Below are positions 17,588-24,692 of a stretch of 64,000 nt of DNA, piece by piece; within the stretch, counting starts at the first letter, position 1; every line of letters starts with the position of its first letter. Source of the stretch: an uncultured bacterium (GTDB lineage Bacteria > Patescibacteriota > Minisyncoccia > Phycocordibacterales > PALSA-1337). The translations under genes and the position numbers were made by a program. The stretch is from NCBI GenBank assembly GCA_903872035.1, contig CAIQIZ010000022.1:5156-69155 (forward strand), written 5' to 3'. The notes beneath the pieces were generated by a model. That model was not told the DNA's origin. It saw only the letters and a program-made list of their open reading frames with translations, and did no database searches.

Positions 17588-18646
17588 ATGGCCACATCAC
17601 CCATTTCATTTAAACCAAAACAGACCACCAAGAGACTGCTCTCGTCCCTTCCTGATCGTGCCCGCGACGTCATTGTCCATCGTTACGGACTCGGAAAAGA
17701 GACGAAAAGGATGACACTCGATGCTATCGGCAAGCTTTACGGTATAACCCGTGAGCGTGTTCGTCAGATCGAGGCTTACGCCCTCTCGATGGTCCGCAAG
17801 TCTGAGGAATACAAGCAGGAAAAGGCAGCCTTTGCCGAGATAGAGACCCTGCTTCACTCTTTGGGTGGCATTGTTGTTGAAGATGATTTTCTCGGGCATG
17901 TCTCAAAAGATCCAAGCTTGCAAAACCATGTCTTTTTCCTACTAGTTGTCGGCGAACCTTTCCGTAAATTCAAAGAGGACGATGAGTTTCGACATCGCTG
18001 GCACGTCAACGAAGATTTGGCCAAGAAAGTCGAGGGTGCTTTGCGAAAGCTCTACGGTACTTTGAATAATCAAGACCTCCTTCCCGAATCAGAGATGATC
18101 GGAAAATTCTTGACCCATCTGGAAGATGTCTCTGAACGTTATAAAAATCAAGAGATCGTCAAGCGTTGGCTCTCCATTTCCAAAGCTATCGGCAAGAATC
18201 CTCTCGGCGACTGGGGTGTGGCCCAATCTCCGAACGTCAAGACCAAGGGTATGCGCGATTACGCATTCCTGGTCATAAGGAAGCATGGCTCGCCGATCCA
18301 TTTCCGCGAGGTCGCCAAACAGATCACGACTATGTTCAACAAAAAGGCTCACGTCGCAACTACTCACAATGAGCTCATCAAGGATCCTCGTTTCGTGCTC
18401 GTCGGTCGCGGCCTCTACGCTCTAGCTGAATGGGGATATGCTCCAGGAGTCGTCCGTGACGTCATCCGCACAGTCTTGGAGAAGAATGGCGCGCTTTCCA
18501 AGGAGGAAGTCATAGATAAGGTCATGAAGGAGCGCTACGTCAAAGAAAACACTATCATCGTCAATTTGCAAAATCCGAAGTATTTCCGCCGCGATAAAGA
18601 TGGCAAATATCTTCCGTCAGGCGAGAAAGTGAAGGTGGCAGCGTAA
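17588..18646 (+). CDS. Sigma-70 region-4-like HTH protein with C-terminal HARE-HTH-like domain
   Basis: N-terminal 'LPDRARDVIVHRYGLGKETKRMTLDAIGKLYGITRERVRQIEAYAL' matches the sigma-70 region 4 / LuxR-type HTH. C-terminal '...FVLVGRGLYALAEWGY' matches the HARE-HTH signature (F-x-x-V-G-R-G-x-Y-x-L-x-E-W). Confidence 0.55.
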   Translation: MATSPISFKPKQTTKRLLSSLPDRARDVIVHRYGLGKETKRMTLDAIGKLYGITRERVRQIEAYALSMVRKSEEYKQEKAAFAEIETLLHSLGGIVVEDDFLGHVSKDPSLQNHVFFLLVVGEPFRKFKEDDEFRHRWHVNEDLAKKVEGALRKLYGTLNNQDLLPESEMIGKFLTHLEDVSERYKNQEIVKRWLSISKAIGKNPLGDWGVAQSPNVKTKGMRDYAFLVIRKHGSPIHFREVAKQITTMFNKKAHVATTHNELIKDPRFVLVGRGLYALAEWGYAPGVVRDVIRTVLEKNGALSKEEVIDKVMKERYVKENTIIVNLQNPKYFRRDKDGKYLPSGEKVKVAA

Positions 18647-18745
18647 AGCAAGGAGGAAGGAGTAAGAAGCAAGGAGTAGGGCATGCCACCCTACTCCATT
18701 CTTCGTTCTCCTTGCTCCTTCCTTCTTACTCCTTGCTCCTATATT
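18647..18745. repeat. Purine-rich AAGGAG-repeat element forming a long imperfect hairpin (terminator-like) directly after a stop codon
   Basis: 'AGCAAGGAGGAAGGAGTAAGAAGCAAGGAGTAGGG' is followed by its near reverse complement 'CCCTACTCC...CTCCTTGCTCCTTCCTTCTTACTCCTTGCTCC'. It shares the 12-nt core 'GCAAGGAGGAAG' with the elements at 35901 and 53841. Confidence 0.4.
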
Positions 18746-18760
18746 TGCTATACTATAGCC

Positions 18761-20038
18761 ATGCCTCTCGAACAGACCTTTGCCTATCTAGTTCAGAATT
18801 TTCAGATAAACCTCTTACCGCAATCTATCCAGATCGCCATTGCCTTGGCGCCCATCATGCTGATGTGGCTTTTGGCAGTGATCTTCTGGGATCTGTGGGT
18901 GGATTATGTGCGCAGCAGTCATTTTTTGGAAGTAAAATATACAGTGCTAGAGTTGAAGCTGCCCAAGGATACATTCAAGTCGCCGCTAGCTATGGAATCG
19001 GTGCTGAACTCCATACACAATACATCTGATGGGAGCAAGTACTCGCAGTATTGGAAAGGTGAGACGCGACCGTGGTATTCCTTGGAGATTGCTTCTATCG
19101 AGGGTCAAGTAAAATTCTTCGTGTGGACTGAAGATCAACGAAAAGCCGGTCTAATGTCGGCGCTGTATTCACAATATCCTGGAATCGAGATCGTAGAGCG
19201 AGAAGACTATACAAGAAGCGTATATTTTGATCCGAAGGTCATCAGGATCTGGGCTGGTGAATTCAAATTCACAAAGCCCGATGCTTACCCGATCAAGACT
19301 TATGTCGATTACGGCTTGGATAAGGATCCCAAAGAAGAATTCAAGATAGATCCTCTTCTTCCGCTCATCGAATGGCTCGGCAGCGTCGGGCCAAATCAGG
19401 AGGTCTGGTTTCAATTTTTGATCAGAGCCCACATCAAGGAGCAGCACAAACCCGGGACTCTTTTTACGAAGCACGACGCTTGGATAGATGGTGCTCAGAA
19501 AGAAATAGACAAGATCCTTCTCATCAAGGATCGTAAGACCAAGATCGCTGGCGAGGTCAATCCCGAAACCGGTTATGCCAAAATCCCGACCATCTCCAAG
19601 CCGGAACAGGATCTGGTCGAGGCCATAGGCCGTAGCGTAAGCAAGCTTCCGTTCGATGTCGGCATTCGTGCCTTGTATATCGCCAAGAAGGAGATTTTCA
19701 ACACGCCTTTCGGTATCGGTGGGATCATTGGGAACATGAAGCAGTTCAATGCGGAAAATCTAAATGGATTCAAGCCGAATGGAGACAAGTGGCACAATCG
19801 GCTTGGCGATCCATGGCTAGATTACAAGAATTATCGTCGTAATCGTTATGGACGATTGGCTCTCATGGCCTTCAAGAGGCGCTCGTATTTTTATGCGCCG
19901 TTCACGAGCAAGCCGCTGGTTTTGAATACCGAAGAACTGGCGACCATTTACCATTTCCCTGGATCTGTTTCGCAAACTCCTTCATTAGATCGTATTCCGT
20001 CAAAGAAGGGCCAGGCACCTGGAAATTTGCCTGTATAA
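18761..20038 (+). CDS. Hypothetical membrane protein (N-terminal TM helices, large soluble domain)
   Basis: Likely start is the MPLEQ ATG at 18761; the track start at 18683 lies inside the upstream hairpin. 'IQIAIALAPIMLMWLLAVIFWDLW' is a TM segment. No recognisable catalytic motifs. Confidence 0.5.
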   Translation: MPLEQTFAYLVQNFQINLLPQSIQIAIALAPIMLMWLLAVIFWDLWVDYVRSSHFLEVKYTVLELKLPKDTFKSPLAMESVLNSIHNTSDGSKYSQYWKGETRPWYSLEIASIEGQVKFFVWTEDQRKAGLMSALYSQYPGIEIVEREDYTRSVYFDPKVIRIWAGEFKFTKPDAYPIKTYVDYGLDKDPKEEFKIDPLLPLIEWLGSVGPNQEVWFQFLIRAHIKEQHKPGTLFTKHDAWIDGAQKEIDKILLIKDRKTKIAGEVNPETGYAKIPTISKPEQDLVEAIGRSVSKLPFDVGIRALYIAKKEIFNTPFGIGGIIGNMKQFNAENLNGFKPNGDKWHNRLGDPWLDYKNYRRNRYGRLALMAFKRRSYFYAPFTSKPLVLNTEELATIYHFPGSVSQTPSLDRIPSKKGQAPGNLPV

Positions 20039-21060: not shown

Positions 21061-21516
21061 TTAGCCGAGTTTCCCCGAATTGAGCTGGTCTGCCATTGCC
21101 AAGGCTTCGACTAAGGCTTCAGCGCCCGTATTCCAGATCCATACCGAGTCGGCACCATAATCCAGGGCCTTCGTGATTGTCGCGGTGTCATCCTCGTAAA
21201 GCCTTAAGCAAATCGGCACGCGTACGATTCTCCGCTCATCTTCAACTGTGGAGCGAATGCCCCGAATTACATCCAATCCGTCAGGTATCGGCGAATCAAG
21301 GACCAGGTCAACGAGGACCATGCCAATGTTATTAGCGTATTCCAGGTACGTAGTGATGCCCGAATCGCCATTTTTTGCCTCGATGTATGAATGGCCAAGT
21401 GCCCGAAGAAGCCGAGAATTGGCCCTCCGGCTTGAATCATCTGCACATATGATAAGTACGATCATAGATATATCTCCTCTTGAGTTTTCTGCTATTGAAT
21501 GTAAGATGTAATTCAT
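21061..21516 (-). CDS. Stand-alone response-regulator receiver (REC)-like domain protein, atypical
   Basis: 'IVLIICADDSS...' acidic pocket and 'GMVLVDLVLDSPIPDGLD' phospho-acceptor Asp context. The conserved Lys near the C-terminus is not obvious. Confidence 0.5.
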   Translation of the reverse strand: MNYILHSIAENSRGDISMIVLIICADDSSRRANSRLLRALGHSYIEAKNGDSGITTYLEYANNIGMVLVDLVLDSPIPDGLDVIRGIRSTVEDERRIVRVPICLRLYEDDTATITKALDYGADSVWIWNTGAEALVEALAMADQLNSGKLG

Positions 21517-22663: not shown

Positions 22664-22688
22664 AAAATCCGCTTCGGCGGATTTTGTG
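22664..22688 (+). terminator. Rho-independent terminator after mnmA
   Basis: 'AAAATCCGC-TTCG-GCGGATTTT' followed by 'GTGAG'. GNRA-like tetraloop. Confidence 0.6.
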
Positions 22689-22746
22689 AGAGCTTAGCAA
22701 ATATCATTCATACCATCCGTGCTATACTAATGACCAATAAACACCC

Positions 22747-23592
22747 ATGAATCACCTAGTCACGATCGCCAAGTCCGATGGCACAAAAGAGCTTTTTGAA
22801 GAAGAGAAGCTGGTAAGCTCGCTCAAGAGGGTCGGTGCTAGGCCGGAAGTTATAGATGATGTTGTGGATGAAGTCGAAAGAGAGATGCATGAGGATATGA
22901 CAACATCTGACATCTACCGTCGCGCTTTCGTCCTCTTGCATAGGCATTCTGTTCCGATGGCAGCCAAATATTCAGTTCGTCGCGCCATGATGGAACTTGG
23001 GCCCGACGGTTTTCCTTTTGAGAAGTACGTAGCTCGTATCTTCAAGATGTGGGGATATGAATCAGTGACCGATCAGACATTGCTAGGAACTTGTGTTGAT
23101 CATGAGGTTGACGTTGTGGCTTGGAAAGATAAAGAGCTGGCCATGGTAGAGGCAAAGTATCACAATGAGTTTGGTCTGAAATCAGATTTGAAGGTAGCTT
23201 TGTATGTCAAAGCTCGTTTCGATGATTTGGCCGAGGTTGTTTTCAATTTCGGTGGCGTAGAGCGAAAATTGACCGAGCGTTGGCTGGTGACGAATACGAA
23301 ATTTACCGAAAAAGCTATCAAATATGGCGAATGCAATCATTTGAAATTGCTCGGGTGGAATTATCCTATTCATGGCAATTTACATGACATCATAGGTGAA
23401 AATGGCCTTCATCCGATAAGTTGCCTATCTTCTCTAACTCATGAACAAAAGAGAGATCTGGTCGGTCGCAACACTTTAGTTTGTATCGACCTAGTTGGTA
23501 ATCCTGGAATCTTGAACGATATAGGCGTTAAAGGCGAGTTAGCTGAGAAGGTTTTAACTGAAGCACAAATCATTATCGAGGAGGCGAAGTAA
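22747..23592 (+). CDS. ATP-cone domain protein fused to an Mrr-like (PD-(D/E)xK) restriction-endonuclease-type domain
   Basis: The N-terminal ~90 aa has the ATP-cone pattern (KSDGTKELFEEEKLVSSLKRVGA...IYRRAF). The central 'FEKYVARIFKMWGYE...DHEVDVVAWKD...VEAKYH' matches the Mrr_cat D...(D/E)xK core. C-terminal 'LNDIGVKGELAEKVL' is HhH-like. Confidence 0.55.
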   Translation: MNHLVTIAKSDGTKELFEEEKLVSSLKRVGARPEVIDDVVDEVEREMHEDMTTSDIYRRAFVLLHRHSVPMAAKYSVRRAMMELGPDGFPFEKYVARIFKMWGYESVTDQTLLGTCVDHEVDVVAWKDKELAMVEAKYHNEFGLKSDLKVALYVKARFDDLAEVVFNFGGVERKLTERWLVTNTKFTEKAIKYGECNHLKLLGWNYPIHGNLHDIIGENGLHPISCLSSLTHEQKRDLVGRNTLVCIDLVGNPGILNDIGVKGELAEKVLTEAQIIIEEAK

Positions 23593-23624
23593 CCGTGTAG
23601 GTTAGGCCTCCCCGCCTATTCATA

Positions 23625-23650
23625 CTGGCCACAATATGGCCAGTTTTGTT
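23625..23650 (+). terminator. Rho-independent terminator
   Basis: 'CTGGCCA-CAATA-TGGCCAG' followed by 'TTTTGTT'. Confidence 0.6.
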
Positions 23651-23682
23651 GATAATTGAAATATTTGTGTAGATAGGAGATA

Positions 23683-24060
23683 ATGCGAAACATGAATGAA
23701 GTAAAAAAAGAAGTCCAAAAATTCATGGAGGAAAGGGATTGGTTGGGTCAGCCGCCAGCGGATGTGGCAAAGTCTATAATAATTGAAGCTGCCGAACTAT
23801 TGGAACACTTCCAATGGAGCAGTTTCTTCTGTGAAGAAGTTGAAAAGGATCAGAAAACCAAGAATGAAATCGTTGCAGAACTGGCGGATGTGTTCATTTA
23901 TGCTGTTGAAATGGCAATATTATTGGATGTAAATATTGGAGATATCGTGCACGCAAAGCTTATCAAGGCGGCGAAGAAATATCCCGTCGGTGTTGTTAAT
24001 GGAAAGCTCGGGTCGAAAAAATACAAGGAGATAAAGAAGAAATATCGCGCGAAATCATAA
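23683..24060 (+). CDS. MazG-like nucleotide pyrophosphohydrolase
   Basis: 'IIEAAELLEHFQW' and 'ELADVFIYAVEMA' are the EExxE/D metal-binding helices of the all-alpha NTP-PPase (MazG) fold. Confidence 0.7.
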   Translation: MRNMNEVKKEVQKFMEERDWLGQPPADVAKSIIIEAAELLEHFQWSSFFCEEVEKDQKTKNEIVAELADVFIYAVEMAILLDVNIGDIVHAKLIKAAKKYPVGVVNGKLGSKKYKEIKKKYRAKS

Positions 24061-24065
24061 TCTTT

Positions 24066-24692
24066 GTGTCGAGTAATTCATTTATGACCAAACACGACCA
24101 AATGAAAGCAATCCGCGACGAACTGCTGGCGTTCACGCATTCGCCTCTCTATGAATATCGCACTGCCAACAAGTTCTTTCCTGTCGTTGGTGAGGGCAGT
24201 CATGATGCAGCCATCATGTTCGTGGGCGAAGCGCCTGGGCAGAATGAAGCCAAGACCGGACGGCCGTTTTGTGGGGCAGCAGGCAAGTTCCTTACGCTTC
24301 TCATCGAATCGATCGGGTTAACTCGCGACAAGGTTTACATCACAAATGTAGTCAAAGATCGTCCACCCGAGAATCGAGACCCGACGCCGGAGGAAATAGC
24401 CCTTTATTCACCATTCCTCGATCGTCAGGTGCAGATAATCCAACCCAGAGTCATCGTTACGCTCGGAAGGCATTCCATGGGATATGTCATGAGACGCTAT
24501 GATTTGGATCTGGAGCTTGAGCCGATCAGCAAGATTCATGGGAAATCATTCCAGACGGTCTATTTTGATGCAGATAGCAATCCGCAACCCGTGACGATCG
24601 TGACGCTCTACCATCCGGCTAGTGCGCTCTACAATGGCGGAATGAGGGATATTCATAAGAAAGATTTTGAAGTTTTGAAGAAGTTCCTGTAG
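24066..24692 (+). CDS. Uracil-DNA glycosylase, family 4
   Basis: Motif A 'GEAPGQNEAKTGRPFCGAAGKFL' and motif B 'YHPASALY' of the family-4 (UdgA / phage SPO1-type) UDGs. Confidence 0.8.
   Translation: MSSNSFMTKHDQMKAIRDELLAFTHSPLYEYRTANKFFPVVGEGSHDAAIMFVGEAPGQNEAKTGRPFCGAAGKFLTLLIESIGLTRDKVYITNVVKDRPPENRDPTPEEIALYSPFLDRQVQIIQPRVIVTLGRHSMGYVMRRYDLDLELEPISKIHGKSFQTVYFDADSNPQPVTIVTLYHPASALYNGGMRDIHKKDFEVLKKFL

What the first reader, a model, noticed from the sequence alone, without database searches (positions are those of the whole stretch)
22747..24692. ATP-cone + Mrr-like nuclease gene followed by MazG-like NTP pyrophosphohydrolase and family-4 UDG
22747..23592 joins an ATP-cone, the allosteric nucleotide-sensing module of NrdR and ribonucleotide reductases, to a PD-(D/E)xK Mrr-type nuclease core ('DHEVDVVAWKD...VEAKYH') and a C-terminal HhH. 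That is a domain logic for a nuclease switched by dNTP/ATP levels. It is followed co-directionally by a MazG-type pyrophosphohydrolase, which sanitises non-canonical dNTPs, and a family-4 uracil-DNA glycosylase. As a set this could be nucleotide-pool surveillance or anti-phage defence (nucleotide-depletion sensing then DNA cleavage), or an NrdR-like regulatory nuclease. The individual parts are known, but the ATP-cone-REase fusion is not a characterised system.
Basis: partly seen in the sequence, partly recalled or inferred. Interest (0 to 1): 0.55.

Follow-up and report, generated by a model that had tools for sequence, protein, structure and literature searches.

The report
ATP-cone-gated nuclease, core CPR gene
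The gene really does fuse a nucleotide-sensing ATP-cone to an intact restriction-enzyme-like nuclease. It belongs to a huge, untested protein family that behaves like a housekeeping gene tied to nucleotide metabolism, not like a phage-defence gene or a three-gene system.

Summary
Observation confirmed. 22747..23592 encodes a 281-aa protein with three parts: ATP-cone (aa 1-82), a PD-(D/E)xK Mrr_cat core (E92, E120, D122, E135, K137 invariant in 100 divergent relatives), and a helical HhH/SAM-like C-terminal domain. Residues 94-277 are homologous to PDB 1Y88 (AF1548, function unknown). A MazG-like gene and a family-4 UDG follow co-directionally.

The 'set' and 'defence' readings are not supported:
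- The MazG-like gene is absent from all 80 related Paceibacteria loci.
- A hairpin plus a promoter-like site separate it from the nuclease gene.
- The nuclease sits in a fixed housekeeping block (MltG-MnmA-X-UDG4-AlaRS) and is as conserved as AlaRS.
- It has no phage or IMG/VR relatives and no full-length PADLOC match.

The family is very large (Patescibacteria, Bacteroidota, Chlamydiota). I found no experimental work on it.

In Bacteroidota and Chlamydiota the gene heads a cassette: a beta-CASP metallo-hydrolase, often followed by an archaeal-type nucleoside/NMP phosphorylase, a PRPP synthetase and PPK2.

Best reading: an ATP/dATP-gated endonuclease serving nucleic-acid turnover or nucleotide salvage. 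It is a new variant of known kinds (ATP-cone allostery; sensor-gated PD-(D/E)xK nucleases). Interest is moderate.

The parts
22747..23592 (+). Gene for the 281-aa ATP-cone / PD-(D/E)xK / HhH-like nuclease ('ConeNuc')
   Evidence: ORF. Pfam ATP-cone + Mrr_cat above gathering scores. 1Y88 homology E=1e-27. AF2 model pLDDT 96.6, pTM 0.92.
22747..22992 (+). ATP-cone domain (aa 1-82). K9 is invariant; G12, F17, K21, S25, T53, L64, Y75 are >=90% conserved.
   Evidence: Family profile hits NrdR (6e-3), NrdD (0.012), NrdA (0.3-0.6). Foldseek superposes it on NrdR cones at rmsd 1.8 A over 81 columns. Pairwise alignment to NrdR and NrdA.
22996..23022 (+). Near-invariant linker L-G-P-x-G-x-P-F-E (aa 84-92). 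It joins the last cone helix to catalytic helix alpha1, which carries E92.
   Evidence: G85, G88, F91, E92 invariant and P86 >=90% in 100 divergent sequences. Helix 89-101 in the model. A coupling role is inferred.
23008..23355 (+). PD-(D/E)xK nuclease core (aa 88-203). E92, E120, D122, E135, K137, R157, D160 are invariant; H119, H139, C116, C196, T182-N183-T184 are near-invariant.
   Evidence: D122/E135/K137 align to D38/E51/K53 of AF1548, predicted catalytic in PMC1821046 and PMC1874628.
23359..23589 (+). C-terminal five-helix domain (aa 205-281), AF1548-like_C, HhH/SAM-like fold; probable backbone-binding module.
   Evidence: Aligned to 1Y88 residues ~123-196. PF22357 hit in homologue P0107. 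Domain model and Foldseek neighbours.
22664..22685 (+). Hairpin AAAATCCGC-TTCG-GCGGATTTT just after the MnmA stop codon; terminator-like.
   Evidence: Read directly from the sequence. Not called by the scan tool. Function inferred.
22720..22728 (+). TGCTATACT, an extended -10-like element 19 nt upstream of the ConeNuc ATG.
   Evidence: Read from the sequence. Inference only.
23624..23654 (+). Terminator-like hairpin (8 pairs, 5 G-C) plus T-rich tail, 32 nt after the ConeNuc stop codon.
23656..23684 (+). Promoter-like site TTGAAA-17-GATAAT (10/12), directly in front of or overlapping the MazG-like start.
   Evidence: The number of sites in the region is not above the shuffle expectation, so only its position is suggestive.
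23683..24060 (+). MazG-like NTP pyrophosphohydrolase gene. A neighbour occupying a variable slot, not a conserved partner.
   Evidence: PF12643, 45 bits. PHROG pyrophosphatase hits. 0/80 related loci.
24066..24692 (+). Family-4-type uracil-DNA glycosylase gene. A frequent downstream neighbour within the Paceibacteria synteny block.
   Evidence: TIGR00758, 187 bits. Downstream in 54/80 loci, directly adjacent in 31.

Best explanation
What it is. 22747..23592 encodes a single-chain, three-domain enzyme of the AF1548/COG1787 branch of the Mrr_cat PD-(D/E)xK nucleases. The domains are an N-terminal ATP-cone, a catalytically intact nuclease core and a C-terminal HhH/SAM-like nucleic-acid-binding domain.

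Most likely function. It is an endonuclease whose activity is gated by adenine nucleotides (ATP versus dATP, or ATP level). It belongs to the cell's own nucleic-acid and nucleotide economy (turnover or salvage), not to phage defence, and it does not form a dedicated system with the MazG-like and UDG4 genes.

Shown:
- The domains, the invariant catalytic set E92/E120/D122/E135-x-K137, and the conserved cone residues K9/K21/T53 that align with nucleotide-contacting positions of NrdR and NrdA.
- A confident fixed packing of cone on nuclease in the model (pTM 0.92).
- Core-genome behaviour in Paceibacteria.
- Operon linkage in Bacteroidota and Chlamydiota to a beta-CASP metallo-hydrolase and, often, an archaeal-type nucleoside/NMP phosphorylase, a PRPP synthetase and PPK2.

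Inferred:
- Nucleotide binding to the cone switches the nuclease on or off. This could act through the near-invariant GPxGxPFE linker that runs straight into catalytic helix alpha1, and/or through cone-driven changes of oligomeric state as in NrdR and ribonucleotide reductases.
- The HhH-like domain holds the backbone without sequence specificity.
- The fragments are passed to exonucleases and nucleotide-processing enzymes.
- In nucleotide-auxotrophic Paceibacteria this would couple nucleic-acid breakdown to the (d)ATP pool.
For: Domains and residues:
- Domain hits above curated cutoffs.
- 1Y88 homology at E=1e-27, or 8e-53 with the family profile.
- Invariant catalytic and cone residues across 100 sequences at 32-75% identity.
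- Cone alignment to NrdR/NrdD/NrdA by profile, fold and pairwise alignment.
- AF2 model with pLDDT 96.6 and pTM 0.92.

Housekeeping behaviour:
- Same position between MnmA (70/80) and UDG4/AlaRS (54/80, 58/80) in 80 genomes.
- Median identity 62%, against 61% for AlaRS and 59% for MnmA.
- No phage, IMG/VR or defence-family match.

Link to nucleotide metabolism:
- The cassette ConeNuc / beta-CASP MBL / TP-family / PRPP synthetase is found on the Criblamydia and Pontibacter plasmids and on a Cyclobacterium contig.
- A beta-CASP gene lies downstream in 27 of 58 informative metagenome loci, adjacent in 23. TP-family genes are present in 10 of 38 loci.
- Start/stop overlap with the beta-CASP gene in two Chlamydiia contigs.
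- NUDIX, HD/YfbR-like and DUF4406-like genes recur in the Paceibacteria slot.
- The MBL-PRS-TP trio is induced in microoxia in Bradyrhizobium (PMC6515984).
Against: - No biochemical data exist for any family member, so nucleotide binding, substrate (DNA or RNA) and the direction of regulation are all unknown.
- The salvage cassette is absent from the Paceibacteria loci and from this window. The functional link is therefore transferred from relatives at about 40% identity.
- About 40% of the Bacteroidota-type loci show neither the beta-CASP gene nor the P-type ATPase. Several annotated loci have unrelated neighbours.
- Tight gene packing in CPR genomes makes adjacency weak evidence in either direction.
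- The C-terminal domain's fold neighbours bind DNA, whereas the RMMBL domain of the partner points to RNA. The substrate is not settled.
Confidence: 0.45

Rival explanations
1. DNA-repair nuclease that works with the family-4 UDG in base excision or uracil repair. The ATP-cone would permit incision only when dNTPs are available for resynthesis.
For: - UDG4 lies downstream in 54/80 Paceibacteria loci. In 31 it is directly adjacent, often with gaps of 20 nt or less or overlapping stop/start codons.
- dNTP-sanitising genes recur between the two.
- The HhH-like domain's fold neighbours are DNA-repair and recombination proteins.
- An AP_endonuc_2 gene lies a few genes upstream in L170.
Against: - The adjacency is part of a long block of unrelated housekeeping genes (MltG, MnmA, AlaRS) that are packed just as tightly.
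- In this window a hairpin and a promoter-like site separate the nuclease gene from the MazG-UDG4-M3 unit.
- No UDG gene is seen next to relatives in Bacteroidota, Chlamydiota or the other lineages examined.
Confidence: 0.2
2. Anti-phage or abortive-infection effector. The cone senses phage-induced changes in the ATP/dNTP pool and unleashes the nuclease.
For: - The sensor-plus-PD-(D/E)xK architecture parallels the CARF nucleases Can2, Card1 and Cdn1. These are among the closest structural and HMM neighbours of the nuclease domain.
- Weak PADLOC hit to PDC-S02 (E=5.5e-4).
- Two relatives lie on plasmids.
- The MazG-like neighbour has phage homologues.
Against: - Fixed core-genome locus and AlaRS-level conservation.
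- No match in 50,697 phage records or in IMG/VR, and only 2 of 72,556 plasmids.
- No full-length defence-family match.
- None of the Pfam-annotated neighbourhoods contains restriction-modification, CRISPR or other defence genes.
Confidence: 0.1
3. NrdR-like transcriptional regulator. The nuclease fold would serve only as a DNA-binding module, with the ATP-cone controlling DNA binding.
For: - The cone is most similar to NrdR cones.
- In NrdR, ATP/dATP-dependent oligomerisation controls DNA binding (bioRxiv 10.1101/2025.03.28.645925).
Against: - All catalytic residues are invariant across the family.
- There is no Zn-ribbon.
- No ribonucleotide reductase gene was recognised in this window, and none appears in the Pfam-annotated loci.
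Confidence: 0.05

Closest known systems
AF1548 of Archaeoglobus fulgidus (PDB 1Y88; COG1787; Pfam Mrr_cat + AF1548-like_C)
   Same: Homologous over nuclease core and C-terminal helical domain (aa 94-277; E=1e-27, or 8e-53 with the family profile; Foldseek TM 0.81 normalised to the target). Same catalytic D/E-x-K, and the same conserved Cys and His.
   Different: AF1548 (199 aa) has no ATP-cone. Its function is unknown; it was only predicted to be a restriction-type nuclease (PMC1821046, PMC1874628).
NrdR and the ATP-cones of ribonucleotide reductases
   Same: Same four-helix cone with a beta-hairpin. K9, K21 and T53 align to nucleotide-contacting positions. The expected logic is the same: ATP/dATP binding changes conformation or oligomeric state of the attached module.
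   Different: The output module is a nuclease, not a Zn-ribbon DNA binder or a reductase. The cone is about 8 residues shorter. At the position of NrdR Tyr131, which discriminates at the outer site, it has a basic residue (R79), as in my remembered NrdA sequence (K91). No nrd genes lie nearby.
CARF-PD-(D/E)xK nucleases Can2 / Card1 / Cdn1 (type III CRISPR ancillary effectors)
   Same: N-terminal small-molecule sensor fused to a C-terminal PD-(D/E)xK nuclease. The nuclease domains are among the nearest structural and HMM neighbours (Foldseek E about 1e-3, prob 1.0; PADLOC CARF_PDDEXK E=1e-5 for relatives).
   Different: The sensor is an ATP-cone, not CARF, so the ligand would be ATP/dATP rather than cyclic oligoadenylate. 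There is no CRISPR or defence context, and it behaves as a core gene.
E. coli Mrr (type IV restriction endonuclease)
   Same: Shares the Mrr_cat catalytic domain family.
   Different: Lacks the Mrr_N winged-helix domain that reads modified DNA. It has an ATP-cone and an HhH-like domain instead, and is not in a mobile or defence context.

Membership tests
ATP-cone (PF03477) | Profile match above the curated cutoff | tested here: met
   30.3 bits against GA 25.8, aa 6-79.
ATP-cone (PF03477) | Four-helix cone fold superposable on the cones of NrdR and ribonucleotide reductases | tested here: met
   Foldseek matches to 9gex (rmsd 1.8 A over 81 columns), 7p37 (1.9 A over 80) and 3hne (2.7 A over 83).
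ATP-cone (PF03477) | Conserved phosphate- and ribose-contacting residues (Lys of the beta-hairpin, Lys of helix 1, Thr/Ser of helix 3) | tested here: met
   K9 invariant, K21 and T53 >=90% conserved. K9 and K21 align to the corresponding Lys of E. coli NrdR, including Lys65, which contacts phosphate.
ATP-cone (PF03477) | Binds ATP and/or dATP and transmits an allosteric signal | not testable with these tools
   Requires binding and activity assays.
Mrr_cat / PD-(D/E)xK nuclease (PF04471) | Profile match above cutoff, and the catalytic D...(D/E)-x-K preceded by an acidic residue on helix alpha1 | tested here: met
   32.2 bits against GA 21. E92, D122, E135 and K137 are invariant in 100 sequences.
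Mrr type IV restriction enzyme | N-terminal Mrr_N winged-helix domain that recognises modified DNA | tested here: not met
   Pfam at E<=10 reports only ATP-cone and Mrr_cat. The N-terminus is the cone.
AF1548-like (1Y88, COG1787) | Homology across both the nuclease domain and the C-terminal helical domain | tested here: met
   Alignment covers aa 94-277 against 1Y88 residues 23-196. PF22357 is not reported for this sequence but is above cutoff in homologue P0107 at 64% identity. The C-terminal model matches 1Y88 with TMq 0.72.
Helix-hairpin-helix DNA-binding domains | Recognisable HhH motif or fold | tested here: inconclusive
   No Pfam HhH family hit. Fold neighbours are HhH/SAM-like domains (BAF, Hel308 domain 5, RadA/Rad51 N-terminal domain, alpha-CTD) at TM 0.5-0.6, but with E-values of 0.65-7.
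NrdR | N-terminal Zn-ribbon, and genomic or regulatory association with nrd genes | tested here: not met
   The protein starts with the cone. No nrd genes were recognised in the window or in the annotated loci.
Known or candidate anti-phage defence systems (PADLOC-DB 2.0) | Full-length match to a defence protein model, and a defence-island context | tested here: not met
   Only partial weak hits: PDC-S02 at E=5.5e-4 over aa 37-129, and CARF_PDDEXK at E=1e-5 for relatives. Neighbours are housekeeping or metabolic genes.
   MazG-like in 0/80 loci. UDG4 in 54/80, but inside a wider synteny block. Hairpin and promoter-like site between ConeNuc and the MazG-like gene.
Family-4 uracil-DNA glycosylase (neighbouring gene) | Profile match above cutoff | tested here: met
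   TIGR00758 at 187 bits against cutoff 125.3. The archaeal equivalog NF040953 is below its cutoff (203.9 < 250).

The most novel reading that the evidence does not exclude
The ATP-cone nuclease is the gated entry enzyme of an unrecognised nucleic-acid catabolic and salvage route controlled by energy or nucleotide status. The route would run: endonuclease, then beta-CASP exonuclease, then archaeal-type NMP/nucleoside phosphorylase, then PRPP synthetase and PPK2. Bacteroidota, Chlamydiota and some Proteobacteria would deploy it under low-oxygen or dormancy conditions. In nucleotide-auxotrophic Paceibacteria the gate alone has become a core gene that meters breakdown of nucleic acid against the (d)ATP pool. 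It would be the first enzyme outside ribonucleotide reduction shown to be allosterically run by an ATP-cone.
Probability: 0.25. Interest if true: 0.75.

Novelty: new variant of a known kind. Interest (0 to 1): 0.5.

Why it matters
ATP-cones are understood only in ribonucleotide reductases and NrdR. A nuclease driven by the same module would extend ATP/dATP allostery to nucleic-acid degradation.

The family is very large. Three searches returned 3095, at least 7522 and at least 6551 hits (overlapping sets), across Patescibacteria, Bacteroidota and Chlamydiota. In Paceibacteria it is conserved as strongly as an aminoacyl-tRNA synthetase, yet its function is unknown. It is therefore one of the better-defined 'conserved unknowns' of CPR bacteria, which depend on scavenged nucleotides.

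The recurrent cassette with a beta-CASP nuclease, an NMP/nucleoside phosphorylase, a PRPP synthetase and PPK2 gives a concrete, testable pathway hypothesis. Part of that cassette is induced in microoxia in Bradyrhizobium.

The result also removes a tempting but unsupported 'defence system' label.

Tried and rejected
- Single-sequence search of the cone (aa 1-90) against PDB found nothing meaningful. A family profile was needed.
- PADLOC gave no convincing defence family for the window proteins or for the cassette proteins.
- The phage collection (tblastn) and an IMG/VR pattern scan gave no relatives.
- tblastn of the beta-CASP, TP-family and PRPP-synthetase proteins against the window and the 80 Paceibacteria loci found nothing, so the cassette cannot be shown for this organism.
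- The MazG-like protein as a conserved partner was rejected (0/80).
- Literature searches found no description of the fusion. Terms tried: ATP-cone with restriction endonuclease, Mrr, nuclease, endonuclease and AMP phosphorylase; 'ATP cone domain-containing'; COG1787; AF1548; 1Y88. Only predictions that AF1548 is a nuclease turned up.
- The listing of cluster members gave no organism names for ten distant representatives.
- The NrdR-like regulator idea was rejected because the catalytic residues are invariant and no nrd genes are nearby.
Full report
**1. What is in the sequence**

The ORF at 22747..23592 (+) encodes 281 aa.
- Pfam reports ATP-cone (aa 6-79, 30.3 bits, cutoff 25.8) and Mrr_cat (aa 88-201, 32.2 bits, cutoff 21).
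- The next genes on the same strand are a MazG-like pyrophosphohydrolase (23683..24060; PF12643, 45 bits) and a family-4 UDG (24066..24692; TIGR00758, 187 bits against cutoff 125).
- They are followed by an M3 peptidase and AlaRS. Upstream lie MltG/YceG and MnmA.

**2. Anatomy of the protein**

Residues 94-277 are homologous to PDB 1Y88, the 199-aa 'hypothetical protein AF1548' of Archaeoglobus fulgidus. The match is E=1e-27 with the single sequence and 8e-53 with a family profile. It covers both the nuclease core and the C-terminal helical domain, which Pfam now calls AF1548-like_C (PF22357). That model scores above cutoff in a 64%-identical homologue.

Two papers predicted AF1548 to be a restriction-type nuclease with catalytic D38/E51/K53 (PMC1821046, PMC1874628). 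These residues align to D122/E135/K137 here. The PD-(D/E)xK survey files 1Y88 with Mrr_cat and COG1787 (PMC3424549).

I aligned 100 sequences at 32-75% identity to the query (alignment A1).
- Invariant: K9, G85, G88, F91, E92, G114, E120, D122, E135, K137, R157, D160, P223.
- At least 90% conserved: G12, F17, K21, S25, T53, L64, Y75, P86, C116, H119, H139, T182-N183-T184, C196, W204, P207.

The nuclease active site is therefore under strict selection. This argues against a catalytically dead DNA-binding role.

The cone is genuine.
- The family profile finds NrdR (E=6e-3), NrdD (0.012) and NrdA (0.3-0.6) in the PDB.
- An AlphaFold2 model built on A1 has pLDDT 96.6 and pTM 0.92. Its N-terminal domain superposes on NrdR cones at rmsd 1.8-1.9 A over about 80 columns.
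- K9 and K21 align to the lysines of the NrdR hairpin and helix 1. Lys65 of E. coli NrdR contacts the nucleotide phosphate.

A near-invariant linker, L-G-P-x-G-x-P-F-E, runs from the last cone helix straight into helix alpha1, which carries E92. This is a plausible path for allosteric coupling (inference).

I modelled the C-terminal 77 residues separately (pLDDT 83). They best match 1Y88, and then BAF, Hel308 domain 5, RadA/Rad51 N-terminal domains, Y-family polymerase thumbs and the RNAP alpha-CTD. All are HhH/SAM-like nucleic-acid binders, but the E-values are weak.

**3. Is it a three-gene system?**

A scan of one genome per GTDB species returned 378 relatives, of which 80 loci were kept. 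All were Patescibacteria-type assemblies apart from one contig labelled Bacteroidota (L043). BLAST of the window's neighbours against the ORFs of these loci gives a fixed block:

Sigma70_r4/HARE-HTH protein - membrane protein - MltG - MnmA - ConeNuc - [variable slot] - UDG4 - (M3 peptidase) - AlaRS - two further genes.

| Neighbour | Loci (of 80) |
|---|---|
| MnmA upstream | 70 |
| UDG4 downstream | 54 (31 directly adjacent) |
| AlaRS | 58 |
| MazG-like | 0 |

The slot between ConeNuc and UDG4 is variable. Its contents include NUDIX hydrolases (5 loci), HD_3/YfbR-like 5'-deoxynucleotidase homologues (4), DUF4406-like proteins (5, weak hit), M3 and M29 peptidases, a PDDEXK_1 nuclease, a nucleotidyltransferase and MgtC.

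In this window a terminator-like hairpin (23624-23644, plus a T-rich tail) and a promoter-like site (23656-23684, 10/12 matches) lie between ConeNuc and the MazG-like gene. A hairpin (22664-22685) and a TGnTATACT element (22720-22728) precede ConeNuc. Here the gene therefore looks monocistronic (inference from sequence motifs). By contrast, the MazG-like, UDG4 and M3 genes are separated by only 5 and 3 nt.

The three genes are not a conserved unit. What does recur is a loose theme of nucleotide 'house-cleaning' enzymes next to UDG4.

**4. Is it defence?**

The evidence is against it.
- The gene occupies one fixed core-genome position.
- Its median identity across the 80 loci (62%) equals that of AlaRS (61%) and MnmA (59%) in the same loci.
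- tblastn finds no relative in 50,697 phage records. A pattern scan of 2.9 million IMG/VR contigs finds none. Only 2 of 72,556 plasmids carry one.
- PADLOC gives only partial weak hits: PDC-S02 at E=5.5e-4, and CARF_PDDEXK at E=1e-5 for relatives. PHROGs gives nothing for ConeNuc.
- None of the Pfam-annotated neighbourhoods contains restriction-modification, CRISPR or other defence genes.

**5. Extent of the family and its other contexts**

- An exhaustive HMMER search of 1.84 billion representatives gives 1108 clusters at E<=1e-3 and 424 at E<=1e-30. Almost all of the best 150 are about 280 aa and full length.
- Word-indexed searches seeded with the window protein, the Pontibacter protein and the Criblamydia protein return 3095, at least 7522 and at least 6551 proteins.
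- Sources name them 'ATP cone domain-containing protein', 'restriction endonuclease', 'ATPase' or 'Holliday junction resolvase'. Named organisms include Paceibacterota, Taylorbacteria, many Bacteroidota, and Chlamydiia.

Two plasmid copies, in Criblamydia sequanensis and Pontibacter actiniarum, head the same cassette: ConeNuc - MBL-fold hydrolase (about 455 aa) - thymidine-phosphorylase-family protein (about 500 aa) - ribose-phosphate pyrophosphokinase. In Criblamydia the cassette is flanked by phosphoketolase, glycogen phosphorylase, acetate kinase, a P-type ATPase and an RND pump. A Cyclobacterium-type TARA contig has the same four genes, followed by an unknown gene, PPK2 and a P-type ATPase.

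The families of the cassette proteins:
- The MBL protein is a beta-CASP/RMMBL enzyme.
- The phosphorylase belongs to the archaeal-type families NF003338 and TIGR02645. It is close to, but below the cutoff of, AMP phosphorylase.
- The kinase belongs to the PRK07199 PRPP-synthetase subfamily.

A metagenome scan with a Bacteroidota-weighted alignment returned 80 further loci.
- Of 58 loci with at least 1.5 kb downstream, 27 have the beta-CASP gene downstream (23 within 400 nt) and 18 have a P-type ATPase.
- Of 38 loci with at least 5 kb downstream, 10 have the phosphorylase.

In two Chlamydiia contigs the beta-CASP gene overlaps the ConeNuc stop codon. One of these loci also carries cytochrome bd oxidase and a P-type ATPase. 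In Psychroserpens the gene lies among USP, PFK, a 2-hydroxyacid dehydrogenase and a P-type ATPase.

Other relatives have unrelated housekeeping neighbours. The cassette genes are not found in this window or in the 80 Paceibacteria loci.

**6. Most likely function**

Shown:
- A cone with conserved nucleotide-contacting residues.
- An intact PD-(D/E)xK centre.
- A nucleic-acid-binding-type C-terminal domain.
- Confident fixed packing of the domains.
- Core-gene behaviour.
- Repeated operon linkage, in other phyla, to a second nuclease and to nucleotide-processing enzymes.

Inferred: ATP and/or dATP binding to the cone gates the nuclease. This could act through the invariant linker and helix alpha1, or through oligomer switching as in NrdR and ribonucleotide reductases. 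The enzyme would serve nucleic-acid turnover or nucleotide salvage, tied to adenine-nucleotide status. In Paceibacteria, which as CPR bacteria generally depend on scavenged nucleotides (general knowledge), this would explain its core status.

The substrate (DNA or RNA) and the sign of regulation cannot be decided computationally.

Confidence and rivals:

| Reading | Confidence |
|---|---|
| ATP/dATP-gated nuclease for turnover or salvage | about 0.45 |
| dNTP-gated repair nuclease working with UDG4 | 0.2 |
| Defence or abortive-infection effector | 0.1 |
| NrdR-like regulator | 0.05 |

**7. Comparison with what is known**

The protein is a member of the AF1548/COG1787 branch of Mrr_cat nucleases and carries a bona fide ATP-cone. 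It is not Mrr (no Mrr_N), not NrdR (no Zn-ribbon, no nrd context) and not a catalogued defence protein.

Functionally, the nearest analogues are the CARF-PD-(D/E)xK nucleases Can2, Card1 and Cdn1. They have the same sensor-plus-nuclease layout, and their nuclease domains are among the nearest structural neighbours.

I found no experimental work on any ATP-cone-bearing member, and no paper describing the fusion in the searchable library. That library lacks most subscription journals. The architecture is, however, visible in public annotation (source names).

**8. Verdict**

- The feature is real and the domain reading is correct.
- The 'system' and 'defence' interpretations are not supported.
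- It is a member of a large, uncharacterised family, best described as a new variant of known kinds: ATP-cone allostery applied to a PD-(D/E)xK nuclease.
- Interest is 0.5. It is a well-defined, experimentally tractable conserved unknown with a concrete pathway hypothesis, but not a categorically new kind of system. Its function in this organism rests on inference from distant relatives.

Noticed in passing
window 24066..24692, and UDG4 orthologues in L002-L080: The family-4-type UDG has a single cysteine (C69). The 54 orthologues in related loci have 0-3 Cys in the aligned region. The four-Cys [4Fe-4S] ligand set that I recall as typical of family-4 UDGs therefore appears to be missing in this lineage.
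   Followed up: partly
L009, L020, L036, L044, L050, L055, L067, L073, L076 and others; the interval between ConeNuc and UDG4: The slot that holds the MazG-like gene in this window is variable in relatives. It repeatedly holds other nucleotide-hydrolysing genes (NUDIX, HD_3/YfbR-like, DUF4406-like), alongside peptidases, a PDDEXK_1 nuclease, NTP_transf_6 and MgtC.
   Followed up: partly
L081, L082, L084, L086, L088, L091-L166, L173-L175: In Bacteroidota and Chlamydiota the ConeNuc / beta-CASP pair is often embedded among P-type cation ATPases, RND efflux pumps, USP, PPK2, cytochrome bd, phosphoketolase/acetate kinase and, in L088, reductive pyrimidine-catabolism genes. This looks like a low-oxygen or energy-stress cluster. 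The link to the ion pumps is unexplained.
   Followed up: partly
window 21061..21516 (-): A 151-aa receiver-domain-like ORF on the opposite strand between MltG and MnmA (Response_reg 21.2 bits, below GA 30.2). It is absent from all 80 related loci, so it is probably a lineage-specific insertion.
   Followed up: no
window 17588..18646 (+): A 352-aa protein with Sigma70_r4 plus HARE-HTH is the most conserved gene of the synteny block (median 79% identity in 50 loci), above AlaRS and MnmA. Function not examined.
   Followed up: no
window 18683..20038 (+): A 451-aa protein with no Pfam family, conserved at this position in 56 of 80 related loci.
   Followed up: no
window 23092..23094, 23101..23103, 23161..23163 and 23332..23334 (C116, H119, H139, C196 of ConeNuc): Two near-invariant Cys and two near-invariant His flank the catalytic residues across the family, and both Cys are conserved in AF1548. 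This may be an additional metal site or a disulfide. Their geometry in the model was not inspected.
   Followed up: no
window 23656..23695: The promoter-like -10 hexamer (GATAAT, ending at 23684) overlaps the first ATG of the MazG-like ORF (23683). The real start may be the second Met codon at 23692, possibly on a leaderless or short-leader transcript.
   Followed up: no
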